Assembly: GCA_964016885.1 (NCBI GenBank)
Contig: OZ024746.1
Span: 38,254,001 to 38,318,000 of the forward strand
From: Eledone cirrhosa
Lineage: Eukaryota
Length of the DNA: 64,000 bases
Direction of reading: 5' to 3'
The notes below the pieces were generated by a model that was given only the letters and a program-made list of their open reading frames with translations, ran no database searches and was not told the origin of the DNA. Positions 29,440-57,384 of this stretch are shown piece after piece. Position numbers and translations under genes: made by a program. Each line of letters opens with the position of its first letter. Position 1 is the first letter of the stretch.

Positions 29440-30023
29440 AAGGGCAAGCCTTGACCCTTTGCCTCTGTGGCTGCGAAAATATTCCTGTTGTTGCTGCTGT
29501 TGTTGTCGTACTTTATGGTGCGACTGTTTTGCTGATTTTCGTTGTTGCTGATAGTCTTGTCCTTATTTATGTTGTTGGCGATGTCGTTGATGCTGTTGTT
29601 GTTGGTGTTGTCATTGTTTCTGCTGGGTTTTGTGTTGTCGTTTTTCTTCTCGTTAGTGTTTTCACTATTGTTGGTGTTGGTATTCTCGTTGTTTTTGTTG
29701 TTGGTACTGCTGTTGGCCATACTGCCCAGTGTGGTTCTGGTGTTTGCAAAGGTTGTGGGAGGTGAGGTGTTAATCGCTTTCAATTGACAGCTAATTTAAC
29801 GGATGGGGGTATATCTCGTTCATGTTTTTTAGCAAAAGAAATTAAAAAGTAAAATTCGAACATTTGGGCAAGTGCCCAAATATGATGGGGTCACATTTTA
29901 ACGGGGCAAACATGTGTGTCTTGTGACAACTTTTTACACGAAAATACAAGTAATTCAATGCAAAACTTGAAAATTAACCTGCTCACGGAGCTCACAAAAC
30001 TACGTCTTCATAGTCCGACAACC
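29440..30023 (-). mobile_element. 5'-only fragment of a Tx1-like element (subfamily E)
   Basis: Starts (ATT)n|GG..acgtagt..gtgagctccg, like subfamily A 5' ends. Asn/Thr-rich ORF with TTFANT and NIFAA resembles the ORF1 N-termini. Confidence 0.65.
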
Positions 30024-30056
<33 letters not shown>

Positions 30057-30057
<1 letters not shown>

Positions 30058-30995
30058 GAAATGGCAAGAAAAGCCTCTGTATGGAAAATACCCAGAGCGA
30101 GCTAACAATCCTGATGTTGACAAAACTTTAACCCATCAGTGGTTGGCATCCTCTGGACTGAAATCGGAGACTGAAGGACTGATTATATCAGCACAAGATC
30201 AGTGTCTGCCAACAAAACATTACCAAGCCAACATAATAAAAAATGGGTGCAGCCCATTATGCCGTGTATGCAAAAAACAACCAGAGACCATTGACCATAT
30301 AATTTCAATGTGCAGTCCTATAGCTCCAACCGAATACCTAAACAGGCATGACAGAGCTGCACAATACATACATTGGATAATGTGTAAGCATTTTGACCTG
30401 CCCCATCAAAAGAATTGGGGGGAGCATCAACCACCTCCCATACTTGAAAAAGATCACATCTCAATCTTGTGGAACTTTAGCATCCAAACAGCCCGAAAAA
30501 TAGATGCAAGTAGACCTGGTATAATATTGAAGGACTTTCAAAAGAGGGTATGCCTGCTAATTGATATGTCTGTTCCAATAGACAAGAATGTATCTATAAA
30601 AACATTTGAAAAATTGAGCAAGTATAAGGACCTGGAGATAGAAATTGGAAAAATGTGGAAATTGAGAACTAAAACAATACCAGTGGTTGTAGGCGCTCTG
30701 GGAATGATACCTAAGGGGTCTAATGATTACATATCGCAAATCCCAGGAAACCCGCGTATAGGAGAAATACAAAAGATAGTACTAATGGGAACTGCCCATA
30801 TACTAAAGAAGATTCTGTCAATATAAGTACATCACAAGTCTAAACACTAAAGATGCATGTGTGAATATGTATGTTCTTTCTTGAACATGGCGGACCTTGT
30901 TGTCTCTTGAGGTCACTGGTTGTGACTTGGTGATAACTCGTATGAACATAAAGCAAGATAAATGCAACTATAATAATAATAATAATAATAATAAT
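30057..30995 (+). mobile_element. R4/Dong-clade LINE family 2, 5'-truncated 3' end
   Basis: ORF 30143-30826: ETEG..AQDQ, CRVC..ETIDHIISMC, RHD, RP(D>G)..IDMSVP..K..KY (restriction-like endonuclease). Flanked on both sides by (AAT)n. Confidence 0.9.
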
Positions 30996-33900
30996 GATTT
31001 CTTTATTGGCCACAACGGCTGACATCAAGAAAAACATCACAGACGGAACAGGACGGTACGATGTGGGTTTTGTGCGTGTAAATATTTTTTATTATTTATA
31101 TAAGAAAAGAAAAAAAGACACTAGTCCTCTATAGAACGCCGAGATGGATGTTCCACCGATACTGGTGCCCAACTGGGAGAGGGCAGTGAGCGCCTGGAGA
31201 CATTCCAGTTTCCAAGCGCTATCCCTCGGTCTTTTTCTGACCCAGGACTGCAGCTCCGTCAAGGAGACGAGCTGTGGGAAAATGTGCCTGGCGAACGGCG
31301 ACCACACCCGTTCACCATCAAGGAAGCACCAGAGATGTCGCAGCCTCAGCGCATGTTTGCGCATCATCAGCCATAGCATGCCCTCCTCCCCGCAACGGGT
31401 GTTGACAGCAGATGGATCGTCTGACCATGGGAGCGCGTCCCCTCCACAAAAAGCGGAAGAGGAGGCGCTCCATTTTGGTGAGAGTTGGGCTGGAGCAAGG
31501 GACGACGGTGAGGCGGTAGCAGATGACGGATGCGATGTACGCATTCGCTACTTCCGCCCGGCCTTTTAGGGACAGCTTCCTGTCAGACCATTTCTGGGTG
31601 AGGGATGCCATCCTGCTCGTCATCTCGTTCCAGTTTTTCTCCATCTGGAGGTCCGGTCCGAACCAAACCCCGAGCAATTTAACCGGTCCGTCCGTCCAAC
31701 GCCCCACGACGCTGTCGGACGGCATGGACTTGCCTCTCCAGCTGCCTACGTGCAAGCCCACCAACTTTTCCTGGTTTATCTTTGCTCCTGTCACCGCTTC
31801 GTATTCCTTGAGAGCGGTGCCGAGAATCTGGACGTGTCTGGTGCTCGACACCACCACGGTGACGTCGTCAGTGTAAGCCGACTCGGATTTCCCGCATCCT
31901 AGTTCGCGTGGGACGCCCCTCATCGCCCCCAGTTTGTGCAGTAACGGCTCGAGAGCCAATACGTACAAGAGGGACGAGAAAGGACAACCCTGGCGGACTG
32001 AGCGCATGATGCTAAACGGCTGCGACAGGTGACCGTTCACCCTCACAACTGAGCAGATGTCGCTGTACATTGCTGCGATCCAACGCCTGAAAACGGGCCC
32101 GAAACCGGCGGCCTCTAGGACCGCCGCCAGGTATCGATGGTCGACCCTATCGAATGCTTTGGATTGATCCAAGTTGATCAGGGCCCCACCCTTGCCAGGT
32201 TCCTTAACTACCCTCTCTATGATGTATCGCATGAGGTGGTGGTTGTTGTGTATGGATCTGTCCGGAATGGCGCATATCTGCGCCTCTCCCACCAGACCCT
32301 GCACGACAAGCGCCAACCTCGTTGCTAACACCTTGGCCAAAATCTTGAACTCTGCGTTTAGCAGGGTTATGGGCCTGAAATTATCAATAACATCCCCCTT
32401 GTTCGGGTCTTTTCTCAGCAGCGCCACTGCCTCCCGGCTAACAAAACTGGGAATGCTCCCGGTCTGCTGCCAGTTGCAGTAGACGTCTGCCAAGAGATCA
32501 CCGAACAAGTCTGGCATAAATGCATAAAGCTCGTAGGGCAGACCATCTAAACCTGGCGATTTACCTCTTGTGCAGTTAGCCATCGCTTCCCGTATTTCAC
32601 CGGCTGTTATTGGCTTTTCGCAACACTGTGCTGCGGTCGTCGAGAGCCGAGGCAGTCCGTCGAGGTATGCACTGAAGTCTATGCCACGATCCGGGCCGCC
32701 GCCGCTCCCGAACAGTTCAGCAAAGTGCTGCTGAAAAGCTTCACACATCCGCTCGGGTTCGAGCATCACGCACCCGTTTTGGTCAGACAAAGACCGAATT
32801 GTGGCTTTATTGCCACGTCGCGCGTCTGCCACCCGGGCCCATTGGATGGGTTTTGTCCCCTCGTGTTTCAGATCACGCGCTCTAGTTCTGACAACGTAGC
32901 CTTCGTGTTTTGCGTTGAAGAATTGGTCGAGTGCCAATCTCGCCGCAAGCACGTCGGTTGCGATGCCTGTCCTAAACGCCTCTTCTAGCTTTCTGACTAG
33001 CTCTCCCTCTACTCTATTTTCCTCTATCACTACTCCTTTACTAAACCTAATCGACTCTACTTTAATTGCCCTTTTCAGGGCGAACCACCACCTATTGTTG
33101 ACGACCGCTGCCGTCAACGCCCGCTTAACTAATACGCTAATCCGGTCTCTGTAGGCCTTGCGCGCCGGGAAAGACGCGTTCAGCTTTCAGTAATCAGGCC
33201 CTTGTCTATGAAGTCTGTCTATGTCGATCTCACAGATCACAAATTTGTGGTCTGTGTAGTCGACTATTTTAAATTGTGGACAACTTATACTAGCCTTATC
33301 TAGTTCCCTGCAGAATACCCTATCTAGATACGATCTGGATGACCCTTGCCGTTTGTCCATGTCCACATTGGCACATTCGGGTGATCCAGTCGATACCTGT
33401 CAGACAGTTCAAAACGTCTGAGCAGGGTGGTGAGGCTCTTGTACCCTCCTCCCCTATCCACTAGTCCCACACGATCCCAGCGTGCATCCAAGATACCGTT
33501 CCAGTCGCCCACTAACACTAAAAAGCGGGACGTTCCAAGAAAGGTCTCTAGACGTCAGAAGAAATCTGGCCGTCCTGCCCCTGTTGGGGCGTAGACGGCT
33601 ACTAGCCTGAAAGCATTGCCTTCGCTTCCGGTCACGTCCAGCACCACCGACTTACCTTTTGGGTCCAGGAAGATGGCCCGTATCGCGAGATCCAAGCCTC
33701 TCCGAAAAAGGACGGCAACCCTTCCCCCGATCCTGGACGGCTAGGAGATGCGTATACATCGTAGCCGCCGAAGATCGGTGTGAAGGCCCGTGCCTCGGAG
33801 ATCTGGTTTCACTGATGGCCACCACATGTATGTTTAGTGACCTGAGGTCATTGAGCAGGATGACCCCAGGCCACGTGCATTTATACTGCCTATTCTAAGT

Positions 33901-36191
33901 ACAGCCATGTTGGATGAGAAACGGGGCAAATGAGAAAGGGTAACTTACCTTGTTCGTGTGGTGAAGGGACAGTAGAACCGTCCCTTTCGCTGGTCATGGG
34001 TGTTTCCAAGAGGATGTCAGTGTATATCCTCTTGGTAACCGTCCCTCTGAAGTCTCCAACTGCGTTGGGGAATTTTTGTTTTAAAGGTTTGTATTGTTCT
34101 ATTGAGATTTCGATGATGCTTATGTTTGTCGGGAGAGTTCTTGGTGTTGGTGGGGTGTAGTAGTTTTTTCCGTGTTGTCTGTGTGCTGCTTTATATATTT
34201 TATGAGTTCTTTTTTTGCTATGTTTATGGCTGTGTAATTTTTGGAGGGAGGGGTGATTTTGTTGCCGTTTTCTTCTTGTTGCTGTTTGGTGTGTGTGTCT
34301 TGTTGTGTTTGCGTTGTTGGTGTTTGTGGTGGTCTTGCTGCAAGTTTCCTTGCTGTCTTTACCCCTCTTTGTATGCCTTCGCTTTTGGAGGGTGAATTTA
34401 ACGGTTTTTTTGTTTTTGTTTTTTTGTGGCAGACTGTTTGCCACGTCACTCCCGCCTCAAACTCCGTGTCGGATTCTGTGGCGTCTGGGAGGGGTATGTG
34501 CTCCACGGCTGTTGGTGGTGGTAGTGGAGCCCTCTTCGGCAATGTTGTTGCTGGTGTTGCTATTTCAAATTTAGCTATTGGTGTTGCCGCTACTGATGAT
34601 GCTGCTTTAGTTATCCGTGGTCTTGGTACGGGTGCTACGGACGTTGCCCTCCTACTCACCGTCGAAGGGGCTTCTTCGTTTGTTGCCTGTCCTGCTCTTG
34701 GTAGCAGCAGACCAGGTATTGGAAGGAGAGGGGCCCTCTTCGGTGTTATCTGCAGGCAAAAGGCCCTGAGGTGACCTTTCGACCCACAGAGATAACATTT
34801 TGGCCGTCTTCCTTCTACACTTATAGGGAGTTGGAGTCCTTCCTCGAAGTCTATGATATCGGGGATAGCCTCGATACATTCCTGGTCAGTTTGTATAAGC
34901 AATGTCATGCCTATACCTGAGCAGTTCTCTCTCCCTATTTTTTCTACTTGCAGCATGGTCGCCCTGTTCTCAATTCCAGCAAGGACAGACGCGGCAAGCC
35001 AAGGTATGGGCACGTAGGGTGGGACCTGGGTCACTTTGACCCTCACAATTTTCTGCCCGCAGTAGACTAACTCCTCACTCTTTAGGGTTTCCAAAGAGTG
35101 AGACTTTGCTTTCTGGGAGGTGGCGAAAAGTACGTCTACTGTGGCGTACTTTCTGCCTCGGGTGATGTGGGTTTTGCGTGCACAGACGCACCCCAAGGCC
35201 TTTTGGATTTGAGCCTCCGTGGCTCTCTCCACTCGATGTGAGATTTTGCTTACGGTGCGGTAAGTCACCGTCCGTAGCTGCTGGTCCTTGAAAAAATCGT
35301 ATGGAGGTTTCAGGGAAAATCTATTTGCGCTTCTTGTCACCATGGCCCTTGCGACTGCCATCTCCTCCTCTGTGACTAACACTGTCTCGATATTTCGGGC
35401 GACACCTGCAAAAGAAGTGGTCCCTTTTTCAGCAGCACCACTATTGCTGCCGCTACTGGGCTTACTGGTGTGCTGAGGTCGCTATTACAGGTATCCGTGT
35501 CATTGTTGTTCTTTTCGCTGGTGCAGTTGTTTGTTGTTGTTTTCGTTGATACTGTTGCTGCTGTTACTGTTATTGTGGCTGTTGTTATTATTGTTGTTTT
35601 TGTTGATACTGTTCCTACTATTATTGTTGTTGTGGCTGTTGTTATTGTTATTGTTATTGTCGTTCTCGACCTTACCGCTGTTATTTTTGTTATTGTCGTT
35701 CTCGACCTTACCACTGTTATTTTTGTTATTGTCGTTCTCCACTTTACCGCTGTTATTTTTGGTGTTGTTGTTGGTGATGTTGTTGGTGTTATTGTTGGTG
35801 TTGTTTGTGTTAGAAATATTTGGTAATTTTAAATCTGTAACAATCTGTTTTTACTTTGTAATATTTTCGTTTATATTTACTTCCGCTGGAACGCTGCCTT
35901 GTTGAAATGCTGATAAAGTCTCCCTCTCTCTGTGTTGTCTGACAGCGCTCTCTCTCTCTTTGTGTTATCCATGTTGAAATTTTTCAAAAAAAAAATATTT
36001 TTACACAAATACGAATACGACACCCCGTAAAGGGGTGCCGTATTATTTACTAGTGAACCCCTGTATTAGGTGGGTGACTTCTTCTAAACTTTTATCAAAT
36101 TTAAAACTTGAATAAAAGGTTTAGAACGGTTGAAAAAGAGGTAAAACGTTGAAAAAGACTGGAGGCGATAAGAAGCGTGGCTTCACCAACC
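30996..36191 (-). mobile_element. L1/Tx1-clade LINE subfamily C, both ends present, ORF2 C-terminus deleted
   Basis: ORF1 (~35972-33890) with CYLCGSKGHLRAFC; ORF2 ATG at 33908, VGDWN, RT 33117-31318 (QGCP, YTDD); AATAAA then (ATT)n; 5' end GG abuts (ATT)n. Confidence 0.92.
35650..35762. repeat. 30-bp tandem repeat (~3 copies) in the Tx1-C ORF1 N-terminus
   Basis: ttgttattgtcgttctcgaccttaccgctgttattt repeated; encodes (KVENDNNKNNSG)-like units. Confidence 0.85.
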
Positions 36192-36247
36192 AATAATAAT
36201 AATAATAATAACAATAATAATAATAATAATAACAATAATAATAATAA

Positions 36248-39200
36248 TGATTTCTTTATTAACCACAAAGGTTTACATAAAGTAGACATTAAGGACAGTG
36301 CAGGACAATACAGGACGGTACAAATGGGCATTTCTGCGTGTAAAAAAAAAAAAACAGAGGATGTAACAAAAAATAACAATGAAAAATTCCCCGATAGGGG
36401 GAGACATCGGAGGGACATTTGTTGAGAAAGCCCAGTATAAGGCCACAGTGACCCTGACCACCAAGGCAAGTGCCCTCTCCCAGTTTTCCACCTTTAATTT
36501 ACAGATATATACTCAGAGTAGGCCTATTCACTCGGGCCATTCTTGCTTCTCTCCCCATCTTTCAACAAAATGCTGGGAAGAGAGCACTTCCCTCTCTACT
36601 CTGATTTTCCTGTTCAAATGAAATTCGAAAAAGTCAATCAGTGCATCACCGAAGAGGTAAGTGCTCGTCTTCAGCCCTTTCAAACGTGTCCACCATACTA
36701 TCTCTTTCGCCATGGCCACCAGACAGATAAAAACTGCCTGCCCTTCCCGGCTAAAGGAGGAGGGCGGGGAAATCCTCACGATGGACTCATATAATAGCTG
36801 GATCCGTCCTACACGTGGCAGCAGGTGTTCGACATAAACCCACAAGTCAGCAATGCTCGGACACTGGACGAGTCCGTGCAGGACGGTTTCGTCGCCCTGC
36901 GCGCATCTCGGACATGCCCGGCTGACGGCACCTCCATGCCTGTAGAGTTTATCCCGAACTGGCAAGGCTCCTCGGTAGCACTGCCAGGCCATAGATTTCT
37001 GGAAGTTGTCCATAGGCCCTGGCCCGAAAGTTCTTCCGAAGAGATTGGCTAGTTGATTTTCGTCGACGCCTAGAGTTTCCCCAAGTACGTCGTCGCTCTT
37101 TCCCTCCACTAATCCTCTATAGAACGCCGAGGTGGAGTTTCCACCGATCACATTGCCCGATTGGTCGAGGGCTGTGAGCGCCTGAAGACATTCCAGTCTC
37201 CAGGCGCTCCCTCTCGGTCTTCGCTTGACCCAGGACTGCAGCTCCGTCAAGGAAACGAGCTGGGGAAAGACTTGTCTAGCAAACGGCGACCACACCTGAT
37301 CACCGTCGAGGAAGAGGTGGAGATGTCGTAGCCTGAGCGCGTGCCTGCGCATCATCAGCCACGGCATGCCCAGCCCTCCACGTAGCGGGTGTTGACAACA
37401 GATGGGCCGCCTGACCATCGGAGCGCGTCCCTTCCACAAAAAGCGAAAGAGCAAACGCTCCAGCGCAGTCAGGCGAGGCTTAGGACAAGGTACGACGGTC
37501 AGGCGGTAGCATATGACAGACGCGATGTACGCGTTAGCCACCTCCGCTCGACCTTTCAGGGATAGCTTCCTCTCCGCCCATTTCTGGGTGAGAGAAGCCA
37601 CCCTGCTCGTCACCTCGTCCCAGTTTTTGTCCGTCTGGAGGTCCGGACCGAACCAGACCCCTAGCAATTTAACCGGTCCGTCCGTCCAGCGTCCGACGAC
37701 GCTGTTGGACGGCATGGACCTGCCTCTCCAGGTGCCGAGCTGCAGGCCCACTGACTTTTCCTGGTTGATCATTGCCCCTGTCACCGCTTCGTAATCTCTT
37801 AGTGTAGTGCCGATCGCCTCGATTTGTTTGGCGTTCAACACCACTACTGTGACATCGTCCGCATATGCTGACACGGATCTTCCGCATCCTAGTTCGCGCG
37901 GGAACCCCCTCAACGTCTCCAGTTTGTGCAGTAATGGCTCGCGAGACATTAAGTACAAGAGGGACGAGAGGGGACATCCTTGGCGGACCGAGCGCATGAT
38001 GTTGAACGGTTCCGAAAGGTGACCGTTCACTCTCACCACAGAGCAGATGTCGCTGTGCATGGCAGCGATCCAGCCTCTGAAGACGGGCCCAAAGCCAGCC
38101 GCCCTCAGGACTGCCGCTAGATAACGATGGTCGACCCTATCGAAAGCTTTCGACTGTTCTAAATTGATCAAGGACCCACCCGTGCAAGGTTCCCTAGCTA
38201 CGCTCTCTACGATGTATCGCATGAGGTGGAGGTTGTCGTGGATGGATCTGTCGGGAATGGCGCACGTCTGCGCCTCTCCCACCAGACCACCAACGACAAG
38301 CGCCAACCTCTTTGCTAGCACCTTGGACAAAATCTTGAAGTCTGTATTTAGCAGAGTTATGGGCCTGAAATTATCTGTTATCCGCCTTGTTCGGATCCTT
38401 TCTCAGCATCCCCACAGATCCTCGGCTCACAGAGCTGGGAATTCTCCCGTTCTGTTGCCAGTTGCAATAGACGTCCGCCAAGAGGCCTCCGAACAAGTCT
38501 GGCATATGTACGTTAAGTTCATAGGGTAGACTAGCCAAACCAGGCGATTTACCCATTGTGCAGCCAGTCATTGCCTCCCGTACTTCAGCGGCTGTTATCG
38601 GCTTTTCGCAACACTCCGCCTCTGTGGCCGAGAGCCGCGAAAGTCCGTCGAGGTAGACACTAAAGTCCATCCCTCGATTCGGCCCGCCGCTGCCCCCGAA
38701 CAGCTGGGCGAAGTGTCGGTGAAAAGCTTTACACATTTGCCCGAGATCGAGTAGCATGCGCCGGTCGTGGTACACCAAAGACCGGATCGTGGCTTTGTTG
38801 CCACGACGCGCCTCCGCCACTCGGGCACATTGATCGGCTTAAGTCTCCTCGTGTCTGAGAGCACGCACCCTAGCTCTGACAACGCAGCCTTCGTGCTTTG
38901 CATTGAAGAATTGGTCAAGGGCCAATTTCGCCGCAAGTACGTCGGTTGCGATGCCTTTGCTAAGCGCCTCGTCTAATTTTCTAACTAATTCTCCCTCTGC
39001 TCTATTTCTTTCTATTGCTAAAGCCTTACTAAACCTAATGGACTCTATTCTAATTGCTCTTTTCAGAGCAAGCCACCACTTGTTGTTGACGATGGCCCCC
39101 GTCGACGCCCGCTTAACTAGTTCGCTAATCCGATCTCTGTAGGCCTTGCGCGCTGGTAAGGACGCGTTTAGCTTCCAGTAGACGTGTCCTCGACTATGAA

Positions 39201-40468
39201 GCCTATCTAAGTCATGCACAAAGATCAGGAATTTATGGTCCGTGTAGCTGACTATCTTGAATTGTGGACAGCCTATGCTAGACCTATCTATTTCCCTACA
39301 AAATACTCTATCTAGATATGATCTGGATGACCATATGCTTTTTGTCCAAGTCCACATTGGCACATTCGGGAAATCCAATCGGTACCTCTCAGACAGTTCA
39401 AAACGCCTGAGCAGGTTGGTGAGGCTCTTGCACCCTCCTCCCCTATCCGCTAACCCCACACAGTCCCAGCGTGCATCTATAATCTCGTTCCAGTCGCCCA
39501 CTAACACTAAAGAGCGGGACCTTCCAAAGAAGGTCTCCAGACGCCGGAAGAAATCTGGTCGCCCTGCTCCTGTCGGGGCATAGACGGCCACTAGCCTGAA
39601 AGCTTGCCCGTCTCCGCTGGTCACGTCTAGCACCACCAACTTACCTTCTGGGTCCAGGAAGATGGCCCGTATGGCGAGATCCAAACCTCTCCGAAAAAGC
39701 ACAGCAACTCCTCCTCCCGATCCCGGACGGCTGGGAGATGCGTACACATCGTAGCCGCCGAAGATCGGTGCGAAGGCTCGTGCTTTGGAGATTCTGGTCT
39801 CGCTGATGGCCACTACATCTATGATTAGTGACCTTAGGTCGTTGAGCAGGTAGCCCTGCTTCCATGATGACCCCAAGCCACGCACATTTATGCTGCCTAT
39901 TCTGAGTGAGGTCATGTTGAAATGGAGTAGAAAAGATGGGAAAGACCACTTATCTTACTTCTCGTAGAGGAAGGATGGTTTGTCCATCCGTTTCACTGCT
40001 TTTGACCTCCTCCGGAAGTATGTCCTTATAAATCCTCCTGGAGAGTGTTTGTCGGAAGTCTCCGATGTCTTTGGGGAATTTTTCTTTTAGTGTCGTGTAC
40101 GTTTTCTGTGTGATGCGAGTGATTTGTATGTGTGGAGGTAGTGTGAACTTCTGAGTTGTTGTGTAGTCTTTTTCTGTGATGCTGGTGTTGTGTTGCATGT
40201 AGTGTAATAATTGGTTGTTGTTCAAATTTAATGCTGTGTAGTGTGTATCCAATTCCTCCTGAGTTACCTGGATACCTTTGATAATTATAAAAAGTTTAAA
40301 TTTTGGGCTCAAGGCCCCAATATTTTTGAGTGTCCTTTTCAGAAATCAATGTATGTGCACTTATATACAGTTAACAATAAACATTTTCCATAAATGGCAA
40401 TTTTAAACAACTGAAAATAACAAACCTTTGTGGAGCTCACGATGATACGATTTACTACGTAGGTCGCC
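36248..40468 (-). mobile_element. Tx1 subfamily A copy 2: near-complete ORF2, ORF1 mostly deleted
   Basis: ORF2 pieces 39915-38839 (MTSLRIGSINVRG, GDWN, TDH), 38820-38371 and 38330-36528 (QGCPLS, YADD, CPRC). Bounded by (AAT)n at 36192-36247 and 40469-40492. Confidence 0.93.
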
Positions 40469-47700: not shown

Positions 47701-48634
47701 AGGGACGAGTGTGAACTCGTCACTTTTTAATGGGCCCATGGAGTGCTCTCTGACTTCCTGTGGGATTCCAAAGAACACGTCCATATTTTTCCCACGTCTG
47801 ATGTGGCTTTTTGAGCCCACACATGTCCCAAAGCCTTTTGTATCTGGGACTCAGATGCTCGTTCCACTCGGCGCGTTTTAATATTTATCGTCTGATATGA
47901 CACGATGAATAGGCGCCGATGCTCCATGGTATTAGATGGGATGGGGGTGAGGCTGACCCTGTAACCATATTTGTTTACCATTCGCCTGGCTTCATTCAAA
48001 TTCTTCCTGACTTACCTTAACCGTTTCATTTTTGTAACCTCTTTAGCAAACGACACATTTGGTTTTGCGCTGGTGTTGATGTTGTTGTTATTGTTATTTT
48101 TGTTATTATTATTTTTAGTTTCAGTTGTGGTGGTGGTGATATCAGTGGTGTTGGTTGTTCTCTTTGACATTGTGGTGGTGGGGATGGAGGCTTTAACACC
48201 TTTAGACATTGGTAATGGCGGGAAATCCATGTATGTATGTGACAAATCTAAATAATTGCCATTGCTATTACTTATATTTTCAGTGTTGGCATTTTGTTCT
48301 GTTGTCTGTATTTTGGTTGTCACTGTTATTGTTGTAGTGTTCTCAGTGTTGTTGTCATTGTTCACATTGTTTGTGGTGGTGTTTGTTGTATGAGTTTCTG
48401 CAACCCTCCTCTCAACTTCTACGTCGTTGTCACACGACAGCAAACATTTTGCTGAGGCGCCTGGCTCAGCCGGATTTTTATTTTTATTTTTAAAAGTAAA
48501 ATGTTCAAATATTATACTTTCCCTTTCACAGGGCAAAGTCCAAGGGATTATATCCCTTACACAAGAAGAAGAATTAAACAATAAATAATTATAACAGGTA
48601 AATAAAGCGACTTACTGGGAGCGAGCAAAAAGAC
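44798..48634 (-). mobile_element. Tx1 subfamily F (A-related), entire RT domain deleted
   Basis: Degenerate ORF1 (48400-46500); endonuclease from 46467 (MTLLRIGSINARG); junction at ~45408 joins the pre-RT region to the C-terminal zinc finger; AATAAA then (ATT)n. Confidence 0.88.
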
Positions 48635-48777
48635 GTTTCTACATTTTGCACAAGGCCAGCAATTATCCCAGTGTATAACTGGTGCTTTATTTTATCGACC
48701 CCGTAAGGATGAAAGGCAAAGTTAACCTCGGCGGGATTTGAGGTTAACTTTGCCTTTCATCCTTACAGGGTCGATAA
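48635..48777 (-). mobile_element. SINE fragment with inverted duplication
   Basis: Matches the 56360 SINE up to the B-box, then folds back (arms 48692-48729 and 48740-48777). Confidence 0.85.
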
Positions 48778-48798
48778 TAATAATAATAATAGTAATAA

Positions 48799-50830
48799 TA
48801 TGGAAACTGTTGACGAGCATTGTGTCTGAGGAAATCTACCATCACCTCCACACAAACAACTTGTTGCCGGACGAACAGAAAGGATGCCGAAAGAAGTCAC
48901 GTGGTACAAAGGACCAGTTGCTTATTGATAAGATGGTAATGGGGAATTGCAGGAGGAGACACACTGATCTTGCCATGGGATGGATAGACTACAGAAAGGC
49001 ATTTGACATGGTGCCTCATTCCTGGATCACCAAAAGCCTGGAGATCTTCAGGGTGGCAGATAACATCAGACAGTTGCTGGGCAGGAGTATGGGGTCCTGG
49101 GAGACAGAGTTCACATCAACTGGAGTATCCTTGGGAAGCGTGAAGATCAAGAGAGGTATCTTCCAGGGAGATAGCCTGTCCCCTCTGTTGTTTGTCCTTG
49201 CCCTGATGCCCTTGACCATTATGCTGCGAAAAGTGAGAGCAGGATACAAGTTGGGAAGGGGAGAGCTTACCATCAATCACCTCCTCTTCATGGACGATCT
49301 TAAGCTCTTCGGGAAAAGTGAGAAGGAGTTGGATGTGCTTGTTGACACTGTCCGTATTTTCAGCAGTGATATATGTATGCAGTTTGGTATTGGTAAATGT
49401 GGAGTCATTGTGATGAGGAGGGGTAGGTTGAGCAGAAGTAACGGGATCCAGATACCAACAGGTGAGATGATAAAGGAAATTGACTCTGAGGAAGGATACA
49501 AGTATTTGGGCGTTCTGGAGGCTGATGGCATAAAGAACAAAAAAATGAAGGAATTGTTAAGAACTGAATACATTCGGAGAGTAAGGAGCGTATTGAAGTC
49601 ACATCTGAACAGCAGAAATGCCATAAGCGCAGTAAATTCCCGAGCTGTGTCTATTATTAGGTACAGTGCGGGAATTCTGAGATAGAATGTTGCTGAACAA
49701 AAAGAAATGGATAGGAAGACTAGGAAGCTATTGACTATCTACAACATGTTCCACAAGAGGAGTGATGTCGATAGACTCTACCTAAGGAGATCTGAGGGTG
49801 GAAGAGGTCTTATCAGCATAGAGGACTGTGTTCAGATGGAGAAAAACAACCTATACAAATACGTGACCTATAGTAAGGAGCTCAGAGCTGTACTGAAGGA
49901 GGGGACAGTAGGCCAGGGGATATCCAAGGAGGAAATAACATCAAGGAGGAAGAGCAGCCTTAAGGGAAAACCCCTTCATAGTACCTTCTTTGAGAAAACT
50001 GAATTTAGAGATCCACAGACATGGAACTGGTTGAGAAGAGGAGACCTCAAAAAGGCTACAGAAGGAATGCTAATGGCTGCGCAGGAGCAGGCCCTCAAAA
50101 CGAAGTGGTTGAAGCACCATATCTACAAGGAGGAGGCTAGCCCACTGTGCAGGATCTGTGGAGAGAGAGAGGAGACTGTGGCTCACATTGTGTCCGAGTG
50201 TAAACACCTAGCCCAGACCCACTATAAGGGCTGGAGACACGATGTGATGGGCAGGGTGATCCACTGGCACCTGTGCAAAGTAAACAATCTACCACATTCT
50301 GAGAAATGGTATGAGCATAGGCCAGAGGCGGTGATGGAGAACAGTCAGGTGAAGGTGCTGTGGGATTTTAGGATACAGACGGACTAAAAACTGGAACACA
50401 ATAGACCTGACCTGGTGGTTGTGGACAAAGAAAAAAGATCGTGCCTGATTGTGGATGTGGCCTGCCCGTTCGACACGAGAGTGCAAGAGAAGGAGAGGGA
50501 GAAAATTAACCGATACCAGGACCTAAAGTGGGAGGTGAAAAGGATTTGGAACTGCCATGAAGTCAAAGTGATCCCGATTGTCATAGGCGCACTGGGGACT
50601 ATCTCCAAAGGTTTCCAGGGATGGTTAAAGAAAATCGGCCCTTCACGCTTTTTGGAACGCTTCAAAAGGCATGCTTGCTTGGAACGGCAAGAACCCTCCG
50701 ATACGTCCTGAATATCTGAGGCTGCAAGTAGTGGCTTGATATTCAATCCAACGGACTTTCCAGTTAACCAACATCAATGACTGAGATTCAAGGAATAACA
50801 ATAACAAAAATAATAATAATAATAATAATA
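48799..50830 (+). mobile_element. R4/Dong-clade LINE family 1, 5'-truncated
   Basis: RT ([26 protein letters not shown]), CRIC..ETVAHIVSEC, RHD, RPD..DVACP..EK..KY-type endonuclease; a few stops; (AAT)n on both sides. Confidence 0.93.
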
Positions 50831-51660
50831 AGGGAAGAAGACGCACGAGGTGACGGAGGTCATGAAATCGCCCCCGTAAGTTTTGAATTTTTAACATATT
50901 TAAATCATTTGTGAAATAACAACTCTTAGTACAAATGCTACGTAAAGCACCCGGCTTGAGCCCAAAAAAATTCGGTCCCAAAATATATTGTTATAAGGCT
51001 CAAATATTCAAATATTCAACTTTGTATTGTACACTGTATATGCAAAAAAGAAAATGGCTATAAATGGAAGAAGAACCCCCCCCCCCTCCTCCTCTGTCTA
51101 CACTATATAGAACAGCCAAACTCACCAACACCAGAAACTAGATACACCACCCACCCCATCACCTGTGTACACTAAACCACCACCGCTCACTACGGCCATC
51201 ATTACAACCATTATCCCATCACTGCCGCCACCACTCCTTCACTCCTTCACTGCTACCACCGCTACAGCACCATCACTACAGTAATACGGTCACATCACCG
51301 CCACCACTGCCTCGGTATCGACATCACCACCACCACTGTCTCAGTATCGCTACCGCCGCCAGTCTCCCACTTCTTTTAGCTGGCTGCTGCCACCACATTA
51401 TAGAATCCCTACTGCTAAAAAAGAGGAAGGCATCAAAATATATAGATAGACTCAAAAGAAAAAAGAAAAAACAAACAACAAAACCAAAGCAGCACAGCAA
51501 CAACAGCAAAAAACGAGAAAAAAAAAAAAAAAAAAAAAAACCAAAAACGTAAAGAAAATAAGAATGAAGAGAGAAGCAGGCGGACGGACAGAGAAGAGGG
51601 GGGAAAAACTAAAACTTAAAAAACAAAAACTAAGTCAGACATTCGAACACTACATTACAA
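50831..51660 (+). mobile_element. Possible 5'UTR/ORF1 N-terminal fragment of another Tx1-like element
   Basis: ggcttgagcccaaaa motif as in the subfamily A 5'UTR, then ATG and ACC-rich low-complexity sequence. No diagnostic domain. Confidence 0.35.
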
Positions 51661-51664
51661 TGAA

Positions 51665-54600
51665 ACTTATGCTTATTCATTTTTGGGGCCCTTTCTGCCT
51701 GTGTGTTTGTTTGCTTATGTGTGTTCGTATACAGCGTGGTGATAATGCCACACAAGGGCCAAGTGGAATGGCGGATCCACAGATGGATATGTAACCATAC
51801 ATTCGCCAATCCTCGATAAGAGTGTTTAAATATCGAACATAAACAGTTCGAATAACGGTGAAATGGAGACTAGAACGTCATGTGACAGACTCTCACCCAA
51901 CAGGTGCCCCCTGGCTCAGCAGCAGGAACCTGACTGTCAACCAAATACTGCTGATGTTGGAGGAAGGAGAAGAAGGAAAGGGGCCAGAACCAACTGGACG
52001 AAAGAATTGAATAGAACTGTTATGCAATGTTACCTGAAAAGTAACCCCAAGGAGAGGGGCTACAGGAGACGGATGCATAACATCTGGAACGAGATTGGTT
52101 TATTTAAATTAGATGAACAAAAATTGGCCGGGCAGGCTCGGGTAATAAGAACTAATGGATAGATAAGCGAGCTGGAACTGGAGGAACTGAGCAGAGAGAA
52201 TGGCTTGGAGATGGCGGGTGTAGTATGCCAGACAAGCGAGCCAGTGGGAAATGAAGGTGAAGAGGTCCTGAGAACGGAGGAACCACCCGAAGCAGACAAT
52301 GATCTGAATACTGAGATAAATAATACCTGCAACAGAGATACGGCCACTGAGGAGATGAATGCTGACGGGCTAGGACAAGATTCGGTTGACATCCTAAATT
52401 TAGTGGTAGATGAATTGAACAATGATAGTGGGAGACCTATGAACCTAAGATTTGTAGACAGGAAAAAGTTAAAAGAAACAACAGCTAAGGTAAACAAAGT
52501 CATCCCATACCTTGAGGCGAGGAGACTTCACCAGTGCAACAATATCCTCAAAGCAACAGCAAATACGGTGAGGAAACTACATGGTATAAAAGCGAGAGGA
52601 AACAACAGACAAGAAAGAGCAGAGCCGTGGTGGAAGAAGCGACTGAGTGGGCAAATCGGGGAAATGAGAAATGACATAGGAAAGCTTGAGTCACTACTGA
52701 ATGGGACACTAAAAAACATAGGCACTAAAAATAGGCTGGAAATAAAATACAAAACTAGGAGGAAAAAGCTAAATACTATCATAGAGGAACTGAAGCAACG
52801 CATTGTAGCAAAGAGTGCAAAAATCAGGCGATACGAGAACAGAGTCAGTCAGTATAAACAGAACCGCATGTTCGACACAATGCCCAGGCAGGGTGGATTG
52901 AGACAGTACAGAGGGAGATCGGTGAGCAGGCACAACAACAAACTGATTTGAGTATCACAGTTGAAACTCTTAAGGGGCAGGCCAAAAAACTAACCAACTG
53001 GAAATCACCAGGCCCAGATGGTGTGCAGGGGTATTGGATTAAACATTTAACATCCCTCCACCCGAAGCTGACGGACATGTTCAATGACTGCTTGGTGTCG
53101 GGTGAGGTGCCAGAGTGGTTGACAAAAGGTACCACAGTTCTGATAATGAAAGACCGAATCAAGGGTAATGATGTTACCAACTATAGACCTATCACATGTC
53201 TGTCCGTAATGTGGAAACTGTTGACGAGCATTGTGTCTGAGGAAATCTACCATCACCTTCACACAAACAACTTGTTACCGGACGAACAGAAAGGATGCCG
53301 AAAGAAGTCACGTGGTACAAAGGACCAGTTACTTATTGATAAGATGGTAATGGGGAATTGCAGGAGGAGACACACTGATCTTGCCATGGGATGGATAGAC
53401 TACAGAAAGGCATTTGACATGGTGCCTCATTCCTGGATCACCAAAAGCCTGGAGATCTTCAGGGTGGCAGATAACATCAGACAGTTGCTAGGCAGGAGTA
53501 TGGGGTCCTGGGAGACAGAGTTGACATCAACTGGAGTATCCTTGGGAAGCGTGAAGATCAAGAGAGGTATCTTCCAGGGAGATAGCTTGTCCCCTCTGTT
53601 GTTTGTCCTTGCCCTGATGCCCTTGACCATTATGCTGCGAAAAGTGAGAGCAGGATACAAGTTGGGAAGGGGAGAGCTTACCATCAATCACCTCCTCTTC
53701 ATGGACGATCTTAAGCTCTTCGGGAAAAGTGAGAAGGAGTTGGATGTGCTTGTTGACACTGTCCGTATTTTCAGCAGTGATATATGTATGCAGTTTGGTA
53801 TTGGTAAATGTGGAGTCATTGTGATGAAGAGGGGTAGGTTGAGCAGAAGTAACGGGATCCAGATACCAACAGGTGAGATGATAAAGGAAATTGACTCTGA
53901 GGAAGGATACAAGTATTTGGGCGTTCTGAAGGCTGATGGCATAAAGAACAAAAAAATGAAGGAATTGTTAAGAACTGAATACATTCGGAGAGTAAGGAGC
54001 GTATTGAAGTCACATCTGAACAGCAGAAATGCCATAAGCGCAGTAAATTCCCGAGCTGTGTCTATTATTAGGTACAGTGCGGGAATTCTGAGATGGAATG
54101 TTGCTGAACAAAAAGAAATGGATAGGAAGACTAGGAAGCTATTGACTATCTACAACATGTTCCACAAGAGGAGTGATGTCGATAGACTCTACCTAAGGAG
54201 ATCTGAGGGTGGAAGAGGTCTTATCAGCATAGAGGACTGTGTTCAGATGGAGAAAAACAACCTATACAAATACGTGACCTATAGTAAGGAGCCAATGCTC
54301 AGAACTGTACTGAAGGAGGGGACAGTAGGCCAGGGGATGTCCAAGGAGGAAATAACATCAAGGAGGAAGAGCAGCCTTAAGGGAAAATCCCTTCATAGTA
54401 CCTTCTTTGAGAAAACTGAATTTAGAGATCCACAGACATGGAACTGGTTGAGAAGAGGAGACCTCAAAAAGGCTACAGAAGGAATGCTAATGGCTGTGCA
54501 GGAGCAGGCCCTCAAAACGAAGTGGTTGAAGCACCATATCTACAAGGAGGAGGCTAGCCCACTGTGCAGGATCTGTGGAGAGAGAGAGGAGACTGTGGCT

Positions 54601-55245
54601 CACATTGTGTCCGAGTGTAAACACCTAGCCCAGACCCACTATAAGGGCTGGAGACACGATGTGATGGGCAGGGTGATCCACTGGCACCTGTGCAAAGTAA
54701 ACAATTTACCACATTCTGAGAAATGGTATGAGCATAGGCCAGAGGCGGTGATGGAGAACAATCAGGTGAAGGTGCTGTGGGATTTTAGGATACAGACGGA
54801 CAAAAAACTGGAACACAATAGACCTGACCTGGTGGTTGTGGACAAAGAAAAAAGATCGTGTCTGATTGTGGATGTGGCCTGCCCGTTCGACACGAGAGTG
54901 CAAGAGAAGGAGAGGGAGAAAATTAACCGATACCAGGACCTAAAGTGGGAGGTGAAAAGGATTTGGAACTGCCATGAAGTCAAAGTGATCCCGATTGTCA
55001 TAGGCGCACTGGGGACTATCTCCAAAAGTTTCCAGGGATGGTTAAAGAAAATCGGCCCCTTCACGCTTTTTGGAACGCTTCAAAAGGCATGCTTGCTTGG
55101 AACAGCAAGAACCCTCCGATACGTCCTGAATATCTGAGGCTGCAGGTAGTGGCTTGATATTCAATCCAACGGACTTTCCAGTTAACCAACATCAATGACT
55201 GAGATTCAAGGAATAACAACAATAATAATAATAATAATAATAATA
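51665..55245 (+). mobile_element. R4/Dong-clade LINE family 1, near full length
   Basis: N-terminal WTKELN..CY..GYRRRMHNIW (Myb-like) region, PWWKKRL, an apparent short internal deletion near 52878, then the intact RT-RLE ORF, 3'UTR and (AAT)n tail. Confidence 0.93.
52948..55137 (+). CDS. R4/Dong-type reverse transcriptase with CCHC finger and restriction-like endonuclease (729-aa open segment of a disrupted ORF)
   Basis: [41 protein letters not shown]7-H-X4-C, RHD, RPDLVVVD..IVDVACP..EREKINRY. Confidence 0.9.
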   Translation: MSITVETLKGQAKKLTNWKSPGPDGVQGYWIKHLTSLHPKLTDMFNDCLVSGEVPEWLTKGTTVLIMKDRIKGNDVTNYRPITCLSVMWKLLTSIVSEEIYHHLHTNNLLPDEQKGCRKKSRGTKDQLLIDKMVMGNCRRRHTDLAMGWIDYRKAFDMVPHSWITKSLEIFRVADNIRQLLGRSMGSWETELTSTGVSLGSVKIKRGIFQGDSLSPLLFVLALMPLTIMLRKVRAGYKLGRGELTINHLLFMDDLKLFGKSEKELDVLVDTVRIFSSDICMQFGIGKCGVIVMKRGRLSRSNGIQIPTGEMIKEIDSEEGYKYLGVLKADGIKNKKMKELLRTEYIRRVRSVLKSHLNSRNAISAVNSRAVSIIRYSAGILRWNVAEQKEMDRKTRKLLTIYNMFHKRSDVDRLYLRRSEGGRGLISIEDCVQMEKNNLYKYVTYSKEPMLRTVLKEGTVGQGMSKEEITSRRKSSLKGKSLHSTFFEKTEFRDPQTWNWLRRGDLKKATEGMLMAVQEQALKTKWLKHHIYKEEASPLCRICGEREETVAHIVSECKHLAQTHYKGWRHDVMGRVIHWHLCKVNNLPHSEKWYEHRPEAVMENNQVKVLWDFRIQTDKKLEHNRPDLVVVDKEKRSCLIVDVACPFDTRVQEKEREKINRYQDLKWEVKRIWNCHEVKVIPIVIGALGTISKSFQGWLKKIGPFTLFGTLQKACLLGTARTLRYVLNI

Positions 55246-56359
55246 TTAATCGTTTTGAAACACGAAAGCATCAAAAGATCATATTCCATTACAAAAGATG
55301 CACAAAGATACAGTAATGGACTACAAATTTCAGAAGTCCCATTCACTGCTGAAATGGAAAACACAGAAAAAGCAAGGCAGGTAAAAGTAACTGCAAAGAA
55401 AGAACTGCTACAGAAACTGGCTAAGAAATGGCAACAAACGCCTCTGTATGGAAAATACCCAGAACGAGCTAACAATCCTGATGTTGACAAAACTTTAACC
55501 CATCAGTGGTTGGCATCCTCTGGACTGAAATCGGAGACTGAAGGACTGATTATATCGGCACAAGATCAGTGTCTGCCAACAAAAAATTACCAAGCCAACA
55601 TAATAAAAAATGGGTGCAGCCCATTATGCCGTGTATGCAAAAAACAACCAGAGACCATTGACCATATAATTTCAATGTGCAGTCCTATAGCTCCAACCGA
55701 ATACCTAAACAGGCATGACAGAGCTGCACAATACATACATTGGATAATGTGTAAGCATTTTGACCTGCCCCATCAAAAGAATTGGTGGGAGCATCAACCA
55801 CCTCCCATACTTGAAAAAGATCACATCTCAATCTAGTGGAACTTTAGCATCCAAACAGACCGAAAAATAGATGCAAACAGACCTGATATAATATTGAAAG
55901 ACTTTCAAAAGAGGGTATGCCTGCTAATTGATATGTCTGTTCCAATAGACAAGAATGTATCTATAAAAACATTTGAAAAATTGAGCAAGTATAAGGACCT
56001 GGAGATAGAAATTGGAAAAATGTGGAAATTGAGAACTAAAACAATACCAGTGGTTGTAGGCGCTCTGGGAATGATACCTAAGAGGTCTAATGATTACATA
56101 TCGCAAATCCCAGGAAACCCGCGTATAGGAGAAATACAAAAGATAGTATTAATGGGAACTGCCCATATACTAAGGAAGATTCTGTCAATATAAATACATC
56201 ACAAGTATAAACACTAAAGATGCATGTGTGAATATGTATGTTCTTTCTTGAACATGGCGGACCTTGTTGTCTCTTGAGGTCACTGGTTGTGACTTGGTGA
56301 TAACTCGTATGAACATAAAGCAAGATAAATGCAACTGTAATAATAATAATAATAATAAT
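55246..56359 (+). mobile_element. R4/Dong-clade LINE family 2, 5'-truncated 3' end
   Basis: Nearly identical to 30057-30995 where they overlap; RPD intact; (AAT)n on both sides. Confidence 0.92.
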
Positions 56360-56535
56360 TGTTTCTACTTTTGGCACAAGGCCAGCAATTACCCAGTGCA
56401 TTACTGGTACTTTATTTTATCGACCCCGTAAGGATGAAAGGCAAAGTCAACCTCGGCGGGATTTGAACTCAGATCGTAAAGGGACGTAACTATGCTGGAA
56501 AGCATGGCGTCCGACCCTCTACCGATACTGCCAAT
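56360..56535 (-). mobile_element. Full-length tRNA-derived SINE with (ATT)n tail
   Basis: Minus strand: A-box tggcagtatcggt, B-box gagttcaaatcc, 3' end ggccttgtgccaaaagtagaaaca(att)n. Flanked by (AAT)n. Confidence 0.85.
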
Positions 56536-56556
56536 CATAATAATAATAATAATAAT

Positions 56557-57018
56557 GCTTTCTTTATTAACCACAAGGCTTTACACAAAGTAGACATTAA
56601 GGACAGTACAGGACAATACAGGACGGTACAAATGGGCATTTCTGCGTGTAAAAAACAAAAAAACAGAGGATGTAATAAAAGAACAATGAAAAATTCCCCA
56701 ATACGGGCGAAACTTCCCAGGGCCATCGTGGAGAAAACCCATTAAAAAAACCACGGTGACCCTGACCACCAGGGCAATTGTCCTCTCCCAGTTTTCCACC
56801 TTCAATTTACAGGCATATACTCTAGTAGGTCCACTCACTCGGGCCATCTTGCCTCTTTCACCCATCTTTCATCAAAAACCTGGGAAGATAGCACCTCCCA
56901 CTCTACTCTGATTTTCCTTTTCAAATGAAATTGGAAAAAGTTAATCAGGCTTGACCGAAGAGGTAAGTGCTCGTCTTCCGCCCTTTCAGACGCGTCCACC
57001 ATACTATTTCTTTCGCCA
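56557..57018 (-). mobile_element. Tx1 subfamily A copy 4: 5'-truncated 3' end
   Basis: AKEIVWWTRLKG region plus 3'UTR; (AAT)n at both ends. Confidence 0.9.
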
Positions 57019-57384
57019 ATAATAATAATAATAATAATAATAAAAATAATTTCATTTAAGAATGATTTATAATAGTAATAATATCAACAATTACAATTCA
57101 GTAATATGATCAACTTTGTGGTGTAATGTAAATATTAGCATTTCGGTTTAGATAATTGACACTTTCGAAAATATTTTAAAATAATTTCGCAGTAAATTGT
57201 AATTATTCTCTCCATAAAACTTTTGTAATTATGACGTTTCTTTAATGAACATTATATGTGTGTGTATAGATATGTGTGTATGTGTGTGTGTGTGTGGGTC
57301 CACCATCGTGTATGTGGAAGTGTCTAATGTATATATATGAGACGAATAGGCAATTGGATAGAATGCTTTGCGATATTACCTCTC

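What the first reader, a model, noticed from the sequence alone, without database searches (positions are those of the whole stretch)
29440..57050. 27-kb polarised array of three unrelated retroelement classes chained through (AAT)n landing pads
Seen: about 14 insertions (six Tx1, four R4/Dong, four SINE) abut each other with almost no host DNA, and nearly every junction is an (AAT)n tract (30024, 30970, 36192, 40469, 44611, 44687, 44788, 48778, 50795, 55213, 56338, 56536, 57019). Where the + strand reads (AAT)n, Tx1 and SINE copies lie on - and R4 copies on +. The 1-11.5 kb cluster shows the mirror arrangement, and the Tx1 at 58758 follows (ATT)4 on +. Known: Dong (R4 clade) targets TAA repeats, and some Tx1 families (Kibi, Koshi) target other microsatellites. 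Inference: an APE-type and an RLE-type LINE plus a SINE converged on one microsatellite, prime on opposite strands, and each insertion regenerates the target, giving self-extending arrays.
Basis: partly seen in the sequence, partly recalled or inferred. Interest (0 to 1): 0.8.

Follow-up and report, generated by a model that had tools for sequence, protein, structure and literature searches.

The report
Two LINEs chain through one microsatellite
This 27.6-kb stretch is a chain of 14 jumping-gene copies joined by AAT repeats; across this animal's genome two unrelated retrotransposon types sit in such repeats facing opposite ways, likely because each insertion leaves fresh repeats that attract the next one.

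Summary
The array is real: 14 copies cover 27,248 of 27,611 bases, with 14 pure (AAT)4+ runs and no (ATT) run. The rule holds genome-wide. ATTATT directly precedes 1,709 of 1,790 Tx1-like 5' ends. All 29 sampled R4/Dong-like 5' ends outside the window follow (AAT)n. Across the tract from a LINE end lies another LINE in 92 of 145 cases, 90 in the predicted orientation; only 10 of 64 random tracts touch one. Four more polarised arrays turned up, so this one is not unique. Two corrections. First, the SINE is no third microsatellite specialist: 69 of 76 random copies lack an upstream tract and sit at short ATTAT sites with ~17-bp duplications. Its tail and footprint match Tx1, its likely carrier. 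Second, equal-rate target renewal is too weak to give 10-LINE chains; long pure tracts or regional bias must add feedback. Dong on (TAA)n in molluscs and opposite-facing TRAS/SART on telomere repeats are in print. An (ATT)n-targeting Tx1 sharing Dong's target was not found in my searches; Repbase/Dfam could not be checked. New variant of a known kind.

The parts
29440..30023 (-). Tx1-like 5' remnant (subfamily d), 3' part lost; likely the oldest member
   Evidence: Shares the GTGAGCTCCG 5' motif with Tx1a; no hit of 400 bases or more among fetched loci; near single-copy depth, and contigs differing at 2 (X1) and 9 (X2, X3) letters span flank plus remnant. Assignment to Tx1 rests on the 5' motif, orientation and composition only
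30024..30056 (+). (AAT)11 junction, head-to-head
30057..30969 (+). R4B, 5'-truncated RLE-type LINE
   Evidence: 98% to 55424-56359; C-terminal CCHC and nuclease region
30970..30995 (+). (AAT)8 junction, tail-to-tail
30996..36191 (-). Tx1b, near full length, broken frames
   Evidence: RVT_1 in 31321-33186; ORF1 with CCHC; best relative 94%
36192..36248 (+). (AAT)19 junction with two AAC interruptions 21 bases apart
36249..40468 (-). Tx1a with both ends; most of ORF1 deleted; APE domain at 38842-39954
   Evidence: Exo_endo_phos E 4e-13, RVT_1, zf-RVT; L1 endonuclease hits
40469..40492 (+). (AAT)8 imperfect junction
40493..44610 (-). Tx1a with both ends and internal deletions
44611..44640 (+). 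(AAT)10 junction
44641..44686 (-). SINE 3' piece
44699..44787 (-). SINE 3' half between (TAA)4 at 44687 and (TAA)3 at 44788
44797..48634 (-). Tx1e with large deletions; 5' tract lost
   Evidence: best relative 88%
48635..48773 (-). SINE 3' part plus a short fold-back piece on plus (48742-48773)
48774..48795 (+). (AAT)7 imperfect junction
48796..50793 (+). R4A, 5'-truncated, young
   Evidence: 99.8% to nearest fetched copy
50794..50831 (+). R4A tail plus (AAT)n junction
50832..55212 (+). R4A, full length, young, frame broken in this copy: N-terminal Myb-like region, RT, CCHC, PD-(D/E)xK nuclease
   Evidence: 99.5% to nearest fetched copy
55213..55249 (+). R4A tail plus (AAT)n junction
55250..56337 (+). 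R4B, 5'-truncated
56338..56359 (+). (AAT)7 junction, tail-to-tail
56360..56536 (-). SINE, near full length, young; A-box-like and B-box-like motifs
   Evidence: 99.4% to nearest fetched copy; box consensus recalled
56537..56556 (+). (AAT)6 junction
56557..57017 (-). Tx1a-like 5'-truncated 3' end
   Evidence: best relative 92%
57018..57050 (+). (AAT)8 plus decayed repeats, right edge
1..11474 (.). Mirror cluster: R4A on minus (to 597), Tx1a (602-5492) and Tx1c (5557-11452) on plus, (ATT)n at 5493 and 11453
58746..64000 (+). (ATT)4 followed by full-length Tx1a; continues past the window into R4A on minus

Best explanation
The stretch is a chain of separate retrotransposon copies joined by (AAT)n/(ATT)n tracts, with R4/Dong-like LINEs reading along the AAT strand and Tx1-like LINEs and the SINE along the ATT strand; it likely grew because each insertion left repeats on both sides that later insertions reused. 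Shown: polarity, adjacency, repeats on both sides, different ages, empty paralogous tracts. Inferred from target-primed reverse transcription: the R4 nuclease nicks the ATT-reading strand and its (AAU)n RNA tail primes there. The Tx1 APE nicks the AAT-reading strand opposite C|ATT, primes from an (AUU)n tail, and cuts the second strand about 17 bases on. The SINE likely borrows the Tx1 proteins and needs only a short ATTAT site. Because each family's orientation is fixed by the tract strand, every new copy keeps the array polarised. Inferred: tracts beside these LINEs are longer and purer than typical genomic tracts, so they are better targets (rich-get-richer), helped by regional differences in retention.
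For: Tx1a heads: 1,709 of 1,790 exact matches preceded by ATTATT; 30 of 30 sampled incl. the window copy. R4A heads: 29 of 29 non-window samples have 4 or more pure AAT units within 40 bases; 432 of 607 reverse-strand heads have AATAAT within 5 bases, a strict lower bound. Truncated R4 5' junctions: 22 of 26 with a tract within 10 bases. A random position follows such a run 0.8% of the time. Across-tract neighbour: LINE in 92 of 145, 90 concordant; SINE in 11, 10 concordant. Random 990-kb sample: all 34 element ends at tracts concordant. Host-repeat experiment: 32 of 39 paralogous tracts empty, 7 SINE-filled, all on the ATT strand with repeats left on both sides. Other paralogues met in anchored loci hold Tx1a on the ATT strand or R4 on the opposite strand. 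Pure run 5' of R4A median 14 units, Tx1a 8, random tracts 5. Nearest-relative identity in the array ranges 88-99.8%. SINE 3' 30 nt resembles Tx1 ends (shuffle p 0.0004, 0.003, 0.025), not R4 ends (p about 0.8). ATT-initiated 13-18-base duplications flank truncated Tx1a copies L066, L071, L072 and SINEs (36 of 76 versus 4.4% in shuffled pairs; median 17 for the 23 complex ones).
Against: No enzyme was assayed; nick positions cannot be read in pure tracts. Truncated Tx1a copies follow a tract in only 6 of 12 by script, and two of those six are short-site cases by eye. 0 of 39 unbiased host-repeat tracts hold a LINE. 17 of 22 random tracts of 8 or more units touch no library LINE, so length alone does not guarantee use. 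No allele lacking the array was found. Anchored loci are the best-scoring hits, and some are duplicates of each other (L131-133/146, L147/148, L106/107, L083/084). Some arrays elsewhere include tandem duplications. The SINE-Tx1 tail match is short and AT-rich.
Confidence: 0.72

Rival explanations
1. Polarity comes only from RNA-tail/target pairing after loosely specific nicking, and long arrays come mainly from selection or low recombination keeping insertions that land beside older ones.
For: Tx1a and the SINE accept short ATT sites. Head density along C1 is uneven: 15 in the first 30 Mb against 34 in 80-92.3 Mb (counted by eye). 5 of 11 random C4 stretches carried these LINEs. Long empty tracts are common.
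Against: R4 5' junctions, including truncated ones, are almost always in tracts. Neighbours abut directly through the tract, which regional retention alone does not predict. In the two Bombyx telomere elements the endonuclease is reported as the primary determinant (PMC7265360, passages).
Confidence: 0.15
2. The repeats 5' of the LINEs are largely written by the elements themselves (a repeat leader on the RNA, or slippage by the reverse transcriptase) and were not pre-existing targets.
For: Full-length Tx1a nearly always follows ATT repeats while truncated copies often do not. R4A in host-repeat copy L292 has 8 units on one side and over 20 on the other, against about 10 interrupted units in most empty paralogues.
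Against: No full-length Tx1a showed a unique duplication outside its 5' repeats in 19 copies read by eye. Truncated R4 copies cannot carry a 5' leader yet have long tracts. One of 32 empty paralogues had expanded to 16 pure units by itself (L321). This process could act alongside the best explanation.
Confidence: 0.07
3. Arrays are copied as blocks by read-through transcripts, template jumping or unequal crossing-over.
For: A 5.27-kb R4B unit is repeated in tandem at C1:132.0 Mb and a 7.8-kb unit at C28:85.67 Mb.
Against: In this array every copy has its own truncation or deletions and its own divergence. Opposite-facing families alternate. The five arrays seen differ in order.
Confidence: 0.04
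4. The array is an assembly artefact made by joining reads at AAT repeats.
For: No contig of the laid runs spans the tracts; long reads were not available.
Against: Strict family-specific polarity, the same rule on many chromosomes, distinct copies, and contigs that join the unique left flank to the first element.
Confidence: 0.02

Closest known systems
Dong (R4 clade; Bombyx, Anopheles, Biomphalaria, Darwinula)
   Same: Single ORF with RT, CCHC and RLE nuclease; Myb/SANT-like N-terminal region; (TAA)n target with repeats upstream on the sense strand. (TAA)n is reported as the target in most insects, molluscs and cnidarians (PMC7998251, passages; PMC3812793, passages; PMC3774820, passages).
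   Different: Two families here, chained with a Tx1 on the other strand. An HDV-like 5' ribozyme, shown for Bombyx Dong, was not detected here (inconclusive).
Kibi, Koshi and crocodilian (TTCC)n/(TTTC)n Tx1 families
   Same: APE-type Tx1 elements with microsatellite targets (PMC4494074, passages).
   Different: Target here is (ATT)n, not a pyrimidine repeat, and it is the complement of Dong's target. Kinship to Kibi/Koshi not tested.
TRAS1 and SART1 of Bombyx mori
   Same: Two LINEs inserting into one simple repeat in opposite directions (PMC7265360, passages).
   Different: They are structurally alike elements confined to telomeric (TTAGG)n (R1 clade: recalled). Here an APE and an RLE element share an interstitial microsatellite spread over all large chromosomes.
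SINEU with Tx1-Mar (crocodilians)
   Same: SINE likely moved by a target-preferring Tx1; SINEU-1 and -2 show much weaker preference (23% and 13%) than SINEU-3, and copies are often in tandem (PMC4494074, passages).
   Different: Target there is a Mariner transposon and the heads are snRNA-derived.
R1 and R2 in 28S rDNA (recalled, no call)
   Same: An APE-type and an RLE-type LINE share one repeated locus.
   Different: Separate fixed sites, same orientation, and the target is not renewed as a free microsatellite.

Membership tests
R4/Dong clade | One long ORF with RT followed by CCHC and PD-(D/E)xK nuclease, no APE | tested here: met
   1,126-1,141-aa ORFs in 11 of 20 full-length copies; FMDD, CRIC..H..C and RPD..D..K motifs; best solved relatives are R2 proteins, including the nuclease stretch
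R4/Dong clade | N-terminal Myb/SANT-like domain without zinc fingers (PMC7998251) | tested here: inconclusive
   Four-helix model, pLDDT 80.6. VIA top rows include Zeste (Z 5.8, rmsd 2.3, 62 aligned), GT-1, ISWI, Tbf1 and TRF Myb domains, all Z under 6. Foldseek and Pfam gave nothing significant. Consistent but weak
R4/Dong clade | (TAA)n target, repeats read on the sense strand | tested here: met
R4/Dong clade | HDV-like ribozyme at the 5' end (PMC3774820) | tested here: inconclusive
   No Rfam match; a home-made descriptor with no positive control found none; a conserved 5' stem-loop exists
R4/Dong clade | RT phylogeny grouping with labelled Dong/R4 | not testable with these tools
   The 120 listed homologues carry no clade labels; atlas clusters unnamed
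Tx1 clade | Two ORFs; ORF1 with CCHC knuckle; ORF2 with APE, RT and C-terminal cysteine motif | tested here: met
   (knuckle match weak, E 0.28)
Tx1 clade | Sequence closest to Tx1 proteins | tested here: inconclusive
   Top atlas cluster is named 'Transposon TX1 uncharacterized 149 kDa protein family', score 0.97; a lead, no tree
Tx1 clade | Target-specific by the over-20%-of-flanks rule (PMC4494074) | tested here: met
   95.5% of exact Tx1a heads follow ATTATT
Tx1 clade | RT phylogeny relative to Kibi/Koshi/Keno | not testable with these tools
   No labelled reference sequences available
tRNA-derived SINE | Short, Pol III box motifs, target-site duplication, tail like a partner LINE | tested here: met
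   About 180 bases; box-like motifs read directly (consensus recalled); duplications; tail. ARAGORN and Rfam found no tRNA match, so the tRNA of origin is unknown
Microsatellite-specific element (SINE) | Over 20% of copies flanked by the microsatellite | tested here: not met
   7 of 76 with (ATT)4+ in 60 bases upstream; 5 of 76 with such a tail
Named SINE superfamilies (CORE, Deu, Ceph, Meta) | Shared central domain | not tested
   No reference domains fetched

The most novel reading that the evidence does not exclude
An octopod Tx1 lineage independently evolved to use the complementary strand of Dong's (TAA)n target, a Tx1 target not yet described. The two unrelated enzymes keep producing longer, purer tracts than they consume, so thousands of interstitial, strictly polarised, self-feeding LINE arrays build about 3% of the genome and may underlie reported octopus transposon hotspots.
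Probability: 0.45. Interest if true: 0.7.

Novelty: new variant of a known kind. Interest (0 to 1): 0.55.

Why it matters
These LINE families cover 2.9% of a 990-kb evenly spaced sample, roughly 90 Mb if that holds genome-wide. Their clustering has a concrete sequence cause. The O. vulgaris repeat paper lists Dong-R4 and L1-Tx1 as recently active and reports hotspots without proposing target sharing (PMC13282606, parts 1-2 of 3). The system gives a direct test of convergent target choice by APE and RLE nucleases on one duplex, and of the safe-harbour idea. Many R4A copies have intact ORFs, so the assay is feasible; the PDB sequence search returned only R2 and L1 proteins. Practical point: (AAT)n markers in such genomes may have repetitive, unstable flanks.

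Tried and rejected
Genome search with the SINE returned nothing because common words are skipped; an evenly spaced sample was used instead. Laying public runs gave no allele lacking the array and no contig across a tract; this is uninformative, not evidence of fixation. Ribozyme searches were negative or uncontrolled. Foldseek on the N-terminal model gave no match at E 0.001. The first truncation script mistook internal deletions for 5' ends and was redone with chained hits. One search's anchored counts include the anchors themselves, so one search is used for neighbours. In one search forward-strand matches are double-counted, so only the reverse count is used. The equal-rate renewal model was rejected: chance of 10 or more LINEs per cluster is 3e-9 to 1e-6 at occupancies of 11-22%. 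Two flank clusters first taken for new LINE ends proved to be one non-coding host repeat. Earlier scan findings: none by place, sequence or words. The original Dong paper was not held, and the SINEU paper's supplements, which may list further Tx1 targets, could not be read; its Figure 3 is not held either.
Full report
SETTING. The window is G000:C6:38254001-38318000 in a 3.0-Gb genome. The best named homologue of the Tx1-like ORF2 is from Argonauta hians (66% identity), with a cuttlefish protein further down, so the host is probably an octopod (inference).

OBSERVATION. Self-BLAST and a library of natural copies resolve 29440-57050 into six Tx1-like copies (minus), four RLE-type copies (plus) and four SINE pieces (minus). 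Elements cover 27,248 of 27,611 bases, and the gaps are AAT repeats: 14 pure runs of 4 or more units, none on the other strand, and none in 100 Markov resamples. One junction (48634/48635) has lost its tract, a 32-base SINE piece is folded back onto plus, and the left edge is a break in an old remnant. Nearest-relative identity among fetched loci runs from 88% (Tx1e) to 99.8% (R4A), and the Tx1d remnant has no long match. The array therefore accumulated over time.

THE ELEMENTS. R4A has one ORF with RT, a CCHC motif and an RPD..D..K nuclease; its best solved relatives are R2 proteins. Eleven of 20 full-length copies keep an ORF of 1,126-1,141 residues. Its N-terminal 91 residues fold into four helices whose best VIA matches include Myb/SANT domains at Z 5-5.8, weak but in line with the published R4/Dong domain (PMC7998251, passages). 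R4B is a second family, 38% identical over the C-terminal 250 residues. The Tx1-like elements have ORF1 with a CCHC knuckle and ORF2 with APE, RT and zf-RVT, and the top atlas cluster is named after Tx1. None of 19 full-span Tx1a copies had an intact ORF2; one more had no 3' end in the stretch.

GENOME-WIDE TARGET TEST. The query sequences excluded the repeats. All 30 sampled Tx1a heads follow (ATT)n, and 1,709 of 1,790 exact heads are preceded by ATTATT. All 29 non-window R4A heads have 4 or more pure AAT units within 40 bases; the strict pattern finds 432 of 607 on the reverse strand. Truncated R4 copies follow a tract in 22 of 26 junctions that fell inside the loci; the other 32 of 58 ran off the locus. 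A random position does so 0.8% of the time. Truncated Tx1a copies are looser: 6 of 12 by script, fewer by eye, with 17 of 29 running off. L066, L071 and L072 sit at short ATT sites inside 13-18-base duplications.

POLARITY AND CHAINING. Across the tract from an anchored LINE end lay another LINE in 92 of 145 loci, 90 in the predicted orientation, a SINE in 11 (10 concordant), and nothing from the library in 42. Some loci are duplicates, and the anchors are best-scoring hits. In 99 evenly spaced 10-kb stretches all 34 element ends at tracts were concordant, 10 of 64 tracts touched a LINE, and 4 of those had LINEs on both sides. Four of five regions extended because search hits clustered there held polarised arrays of about 16-36 kb; the fifth, a single 10-kb stretch, held a shorter chain. 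Two of them include tandem duplications. Among the first 100 Tx1a heads on C1, 9 of 99 gaps are under 10 kb, 8 in the same orientation, against about 1 expected at uniform density (counted by eye).

THE SINE. It covers 2.5% of the sample. Of 76 full-length copies, 60 are followed by ATTAT, 36 show a duplication of 12 or more bases (4.4% in shuffled pairs; median 17 for 23 complex cases), and 7 have (ATT)4+ upstream, close to the 7.8% of ATTAT sites that lie in tracts. Its last 30 bases resemble Tx1 ends (shuffle p 0.0004-0.025) and not R4 ends. Same strand, same motif, same duplication length and a similar tail point to Tx1 as carrier (inference). It is still drawn to tracts because they pack many sites.

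A NATURAL EXPERIMENT. A non-coding host repeat carries an internal (ATT)4-AAT-(ATT)5 tract. Of 39 paralogues chosen by the flank alone, 32 are empty, 7 hold a SINE on the ATT strand with repeats left on both sides, and none holds a LINE. That 18% compares with about 0.6% per 31 random bases (arithmetic). Paralogues met in anchored loci hold Tx1a on the ATT strand (L275, L086) or R4 on the other (L292, L122, L041, L099). So the tract can exist before insertion and survives it. In L292 the tract totals over 30 units against about 10 when empty, but one empty paralogue had expanded on its own, so whether R4 writes repeats is open.

MECHANISM. In target-primed reverse transcription the RNA tail pairs with the nicked strand (established knowledge). 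R4, reading AAT, must prime on the ATT strand; Tx1 and the SINE, reading ATT, on the AAT strand. Tail plus duplication leave a tract at each end, so targets multiply and orientation is inherited. With equal rates this gives only short clusters: 3e-9 to 1e-6 for ten LINEs at the observed occupancy. Extra feedback is needed. Pure runs 5' of R4A (median 14 units) and Tx1a (8) exceed random tracts (5), which fits better targets beside older insertions. Uneven density along C1 shows regional effects too, and 17 of 22 long random tracts are unused. I give the combined model 0.72.

ASSEMBLY AND POLYMORPHISM. Contigs from one sample join the unique left flank to the first element, with 2 differences in X1 and 9 in X2 and X3, suggesting both haplotypes carry it. 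No contig crosses a tract, so neither misassembly nor empty alleles could be tested directly.

COMPARISON WITH PRINT. Dong on (TAA)n, including in molluscs: PMC3812793 and PMC7998251 (passages). Dong 5' ribozyme: PMC3774820 (passages). Tx1 on (TC)n, (TTC)n, (TTCC)n, (TTTC)n, and weakly targeted SINEs moved by Tx1: PMC4494074 (passages; Figure 3 and supplements not seen and may list other targets). Opposite-direction insertion into one repeat: TRAS1/SART1, PMC7265360 (passages). General clade background: PMC4640811 (passages). Cephalopod surveys name Dong-R4 and L1-Tx1 but, in what I read, no shared target: PMC8967140 (passages), PMC13282606 (parts 1-2 of 3). Nine full-text searches listed no paper on an (ATT)n-targeting Tx1 or on such mixed arrays; most hits were seen only as listings. 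Kojima and Fujiwara 2004 was seen only as a citation, and Repbase and Dfam were not available.

VERDICT. Real, genome-wide and well supported as a two-LINE, opposite-strand use of one microsatellite with a hitch-hiking SINE. Each ingredient has precedent; the APE-plus-RLE pairing on an interstitial microsatellite and the long arrays appear undescribed within the limits above. New variant of a known kind; interest 0.55.

Noticed in passing
L264:5840-6075; L211, L013, L310-L348: Unnamed non-coding repeat, often as inverted pairs, with an internal (ATT)n tract that serves as an insertion site for the SINE and both LINE types
   Followed up: partly
G000:C1:131.997-132.013 Mb (L158-L159): Tandem 5.27-kb units of near-full R4B plus truncated R4B; array growth by local duplication as well as insertion
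   Followed up: partly
window 50832-50895 and L091-L120: R4A 5' ends start almost invariably at the same base and share a conserved stem-loop among 17 variants; no known ribozyme matched
   Followed up: partly
window 36192-36248: Junction tract with AAC interruptions exactly 21 bases apart, possibly slippage or remnants of duplications
   Followed up: no
window 19924-22635 (minus): Unrelated APE-type LINE (Exo_endo_phos_2 plus RT) with no AAT tract seen at its 3' side
   Followed up: partly
window 57540-58700: Nested palindromic, MITE-like high-copy elements inserted in (TA)n runs; a second microsatellite-associated cluster
   Followed up: no
L165, L166, L075, L116, L274: A further Tx1 subfamily (f) with its own 5' UTR that also follows (ATT)n; at least six different 5' UTRs on related ORF2s
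   Followed up: partly
L038, L060, L120, L147, L304: AAT tracts beside R4 copies often grade into (AAG)n; Tx1 tails sometimes grade into (AGT)n or (ACT)n
   Followed up: no
window 15379-15541 and 18216-18450: Long (CTT)54 and (TATG)59 tracts with none of these elements attached
   Followed up: no
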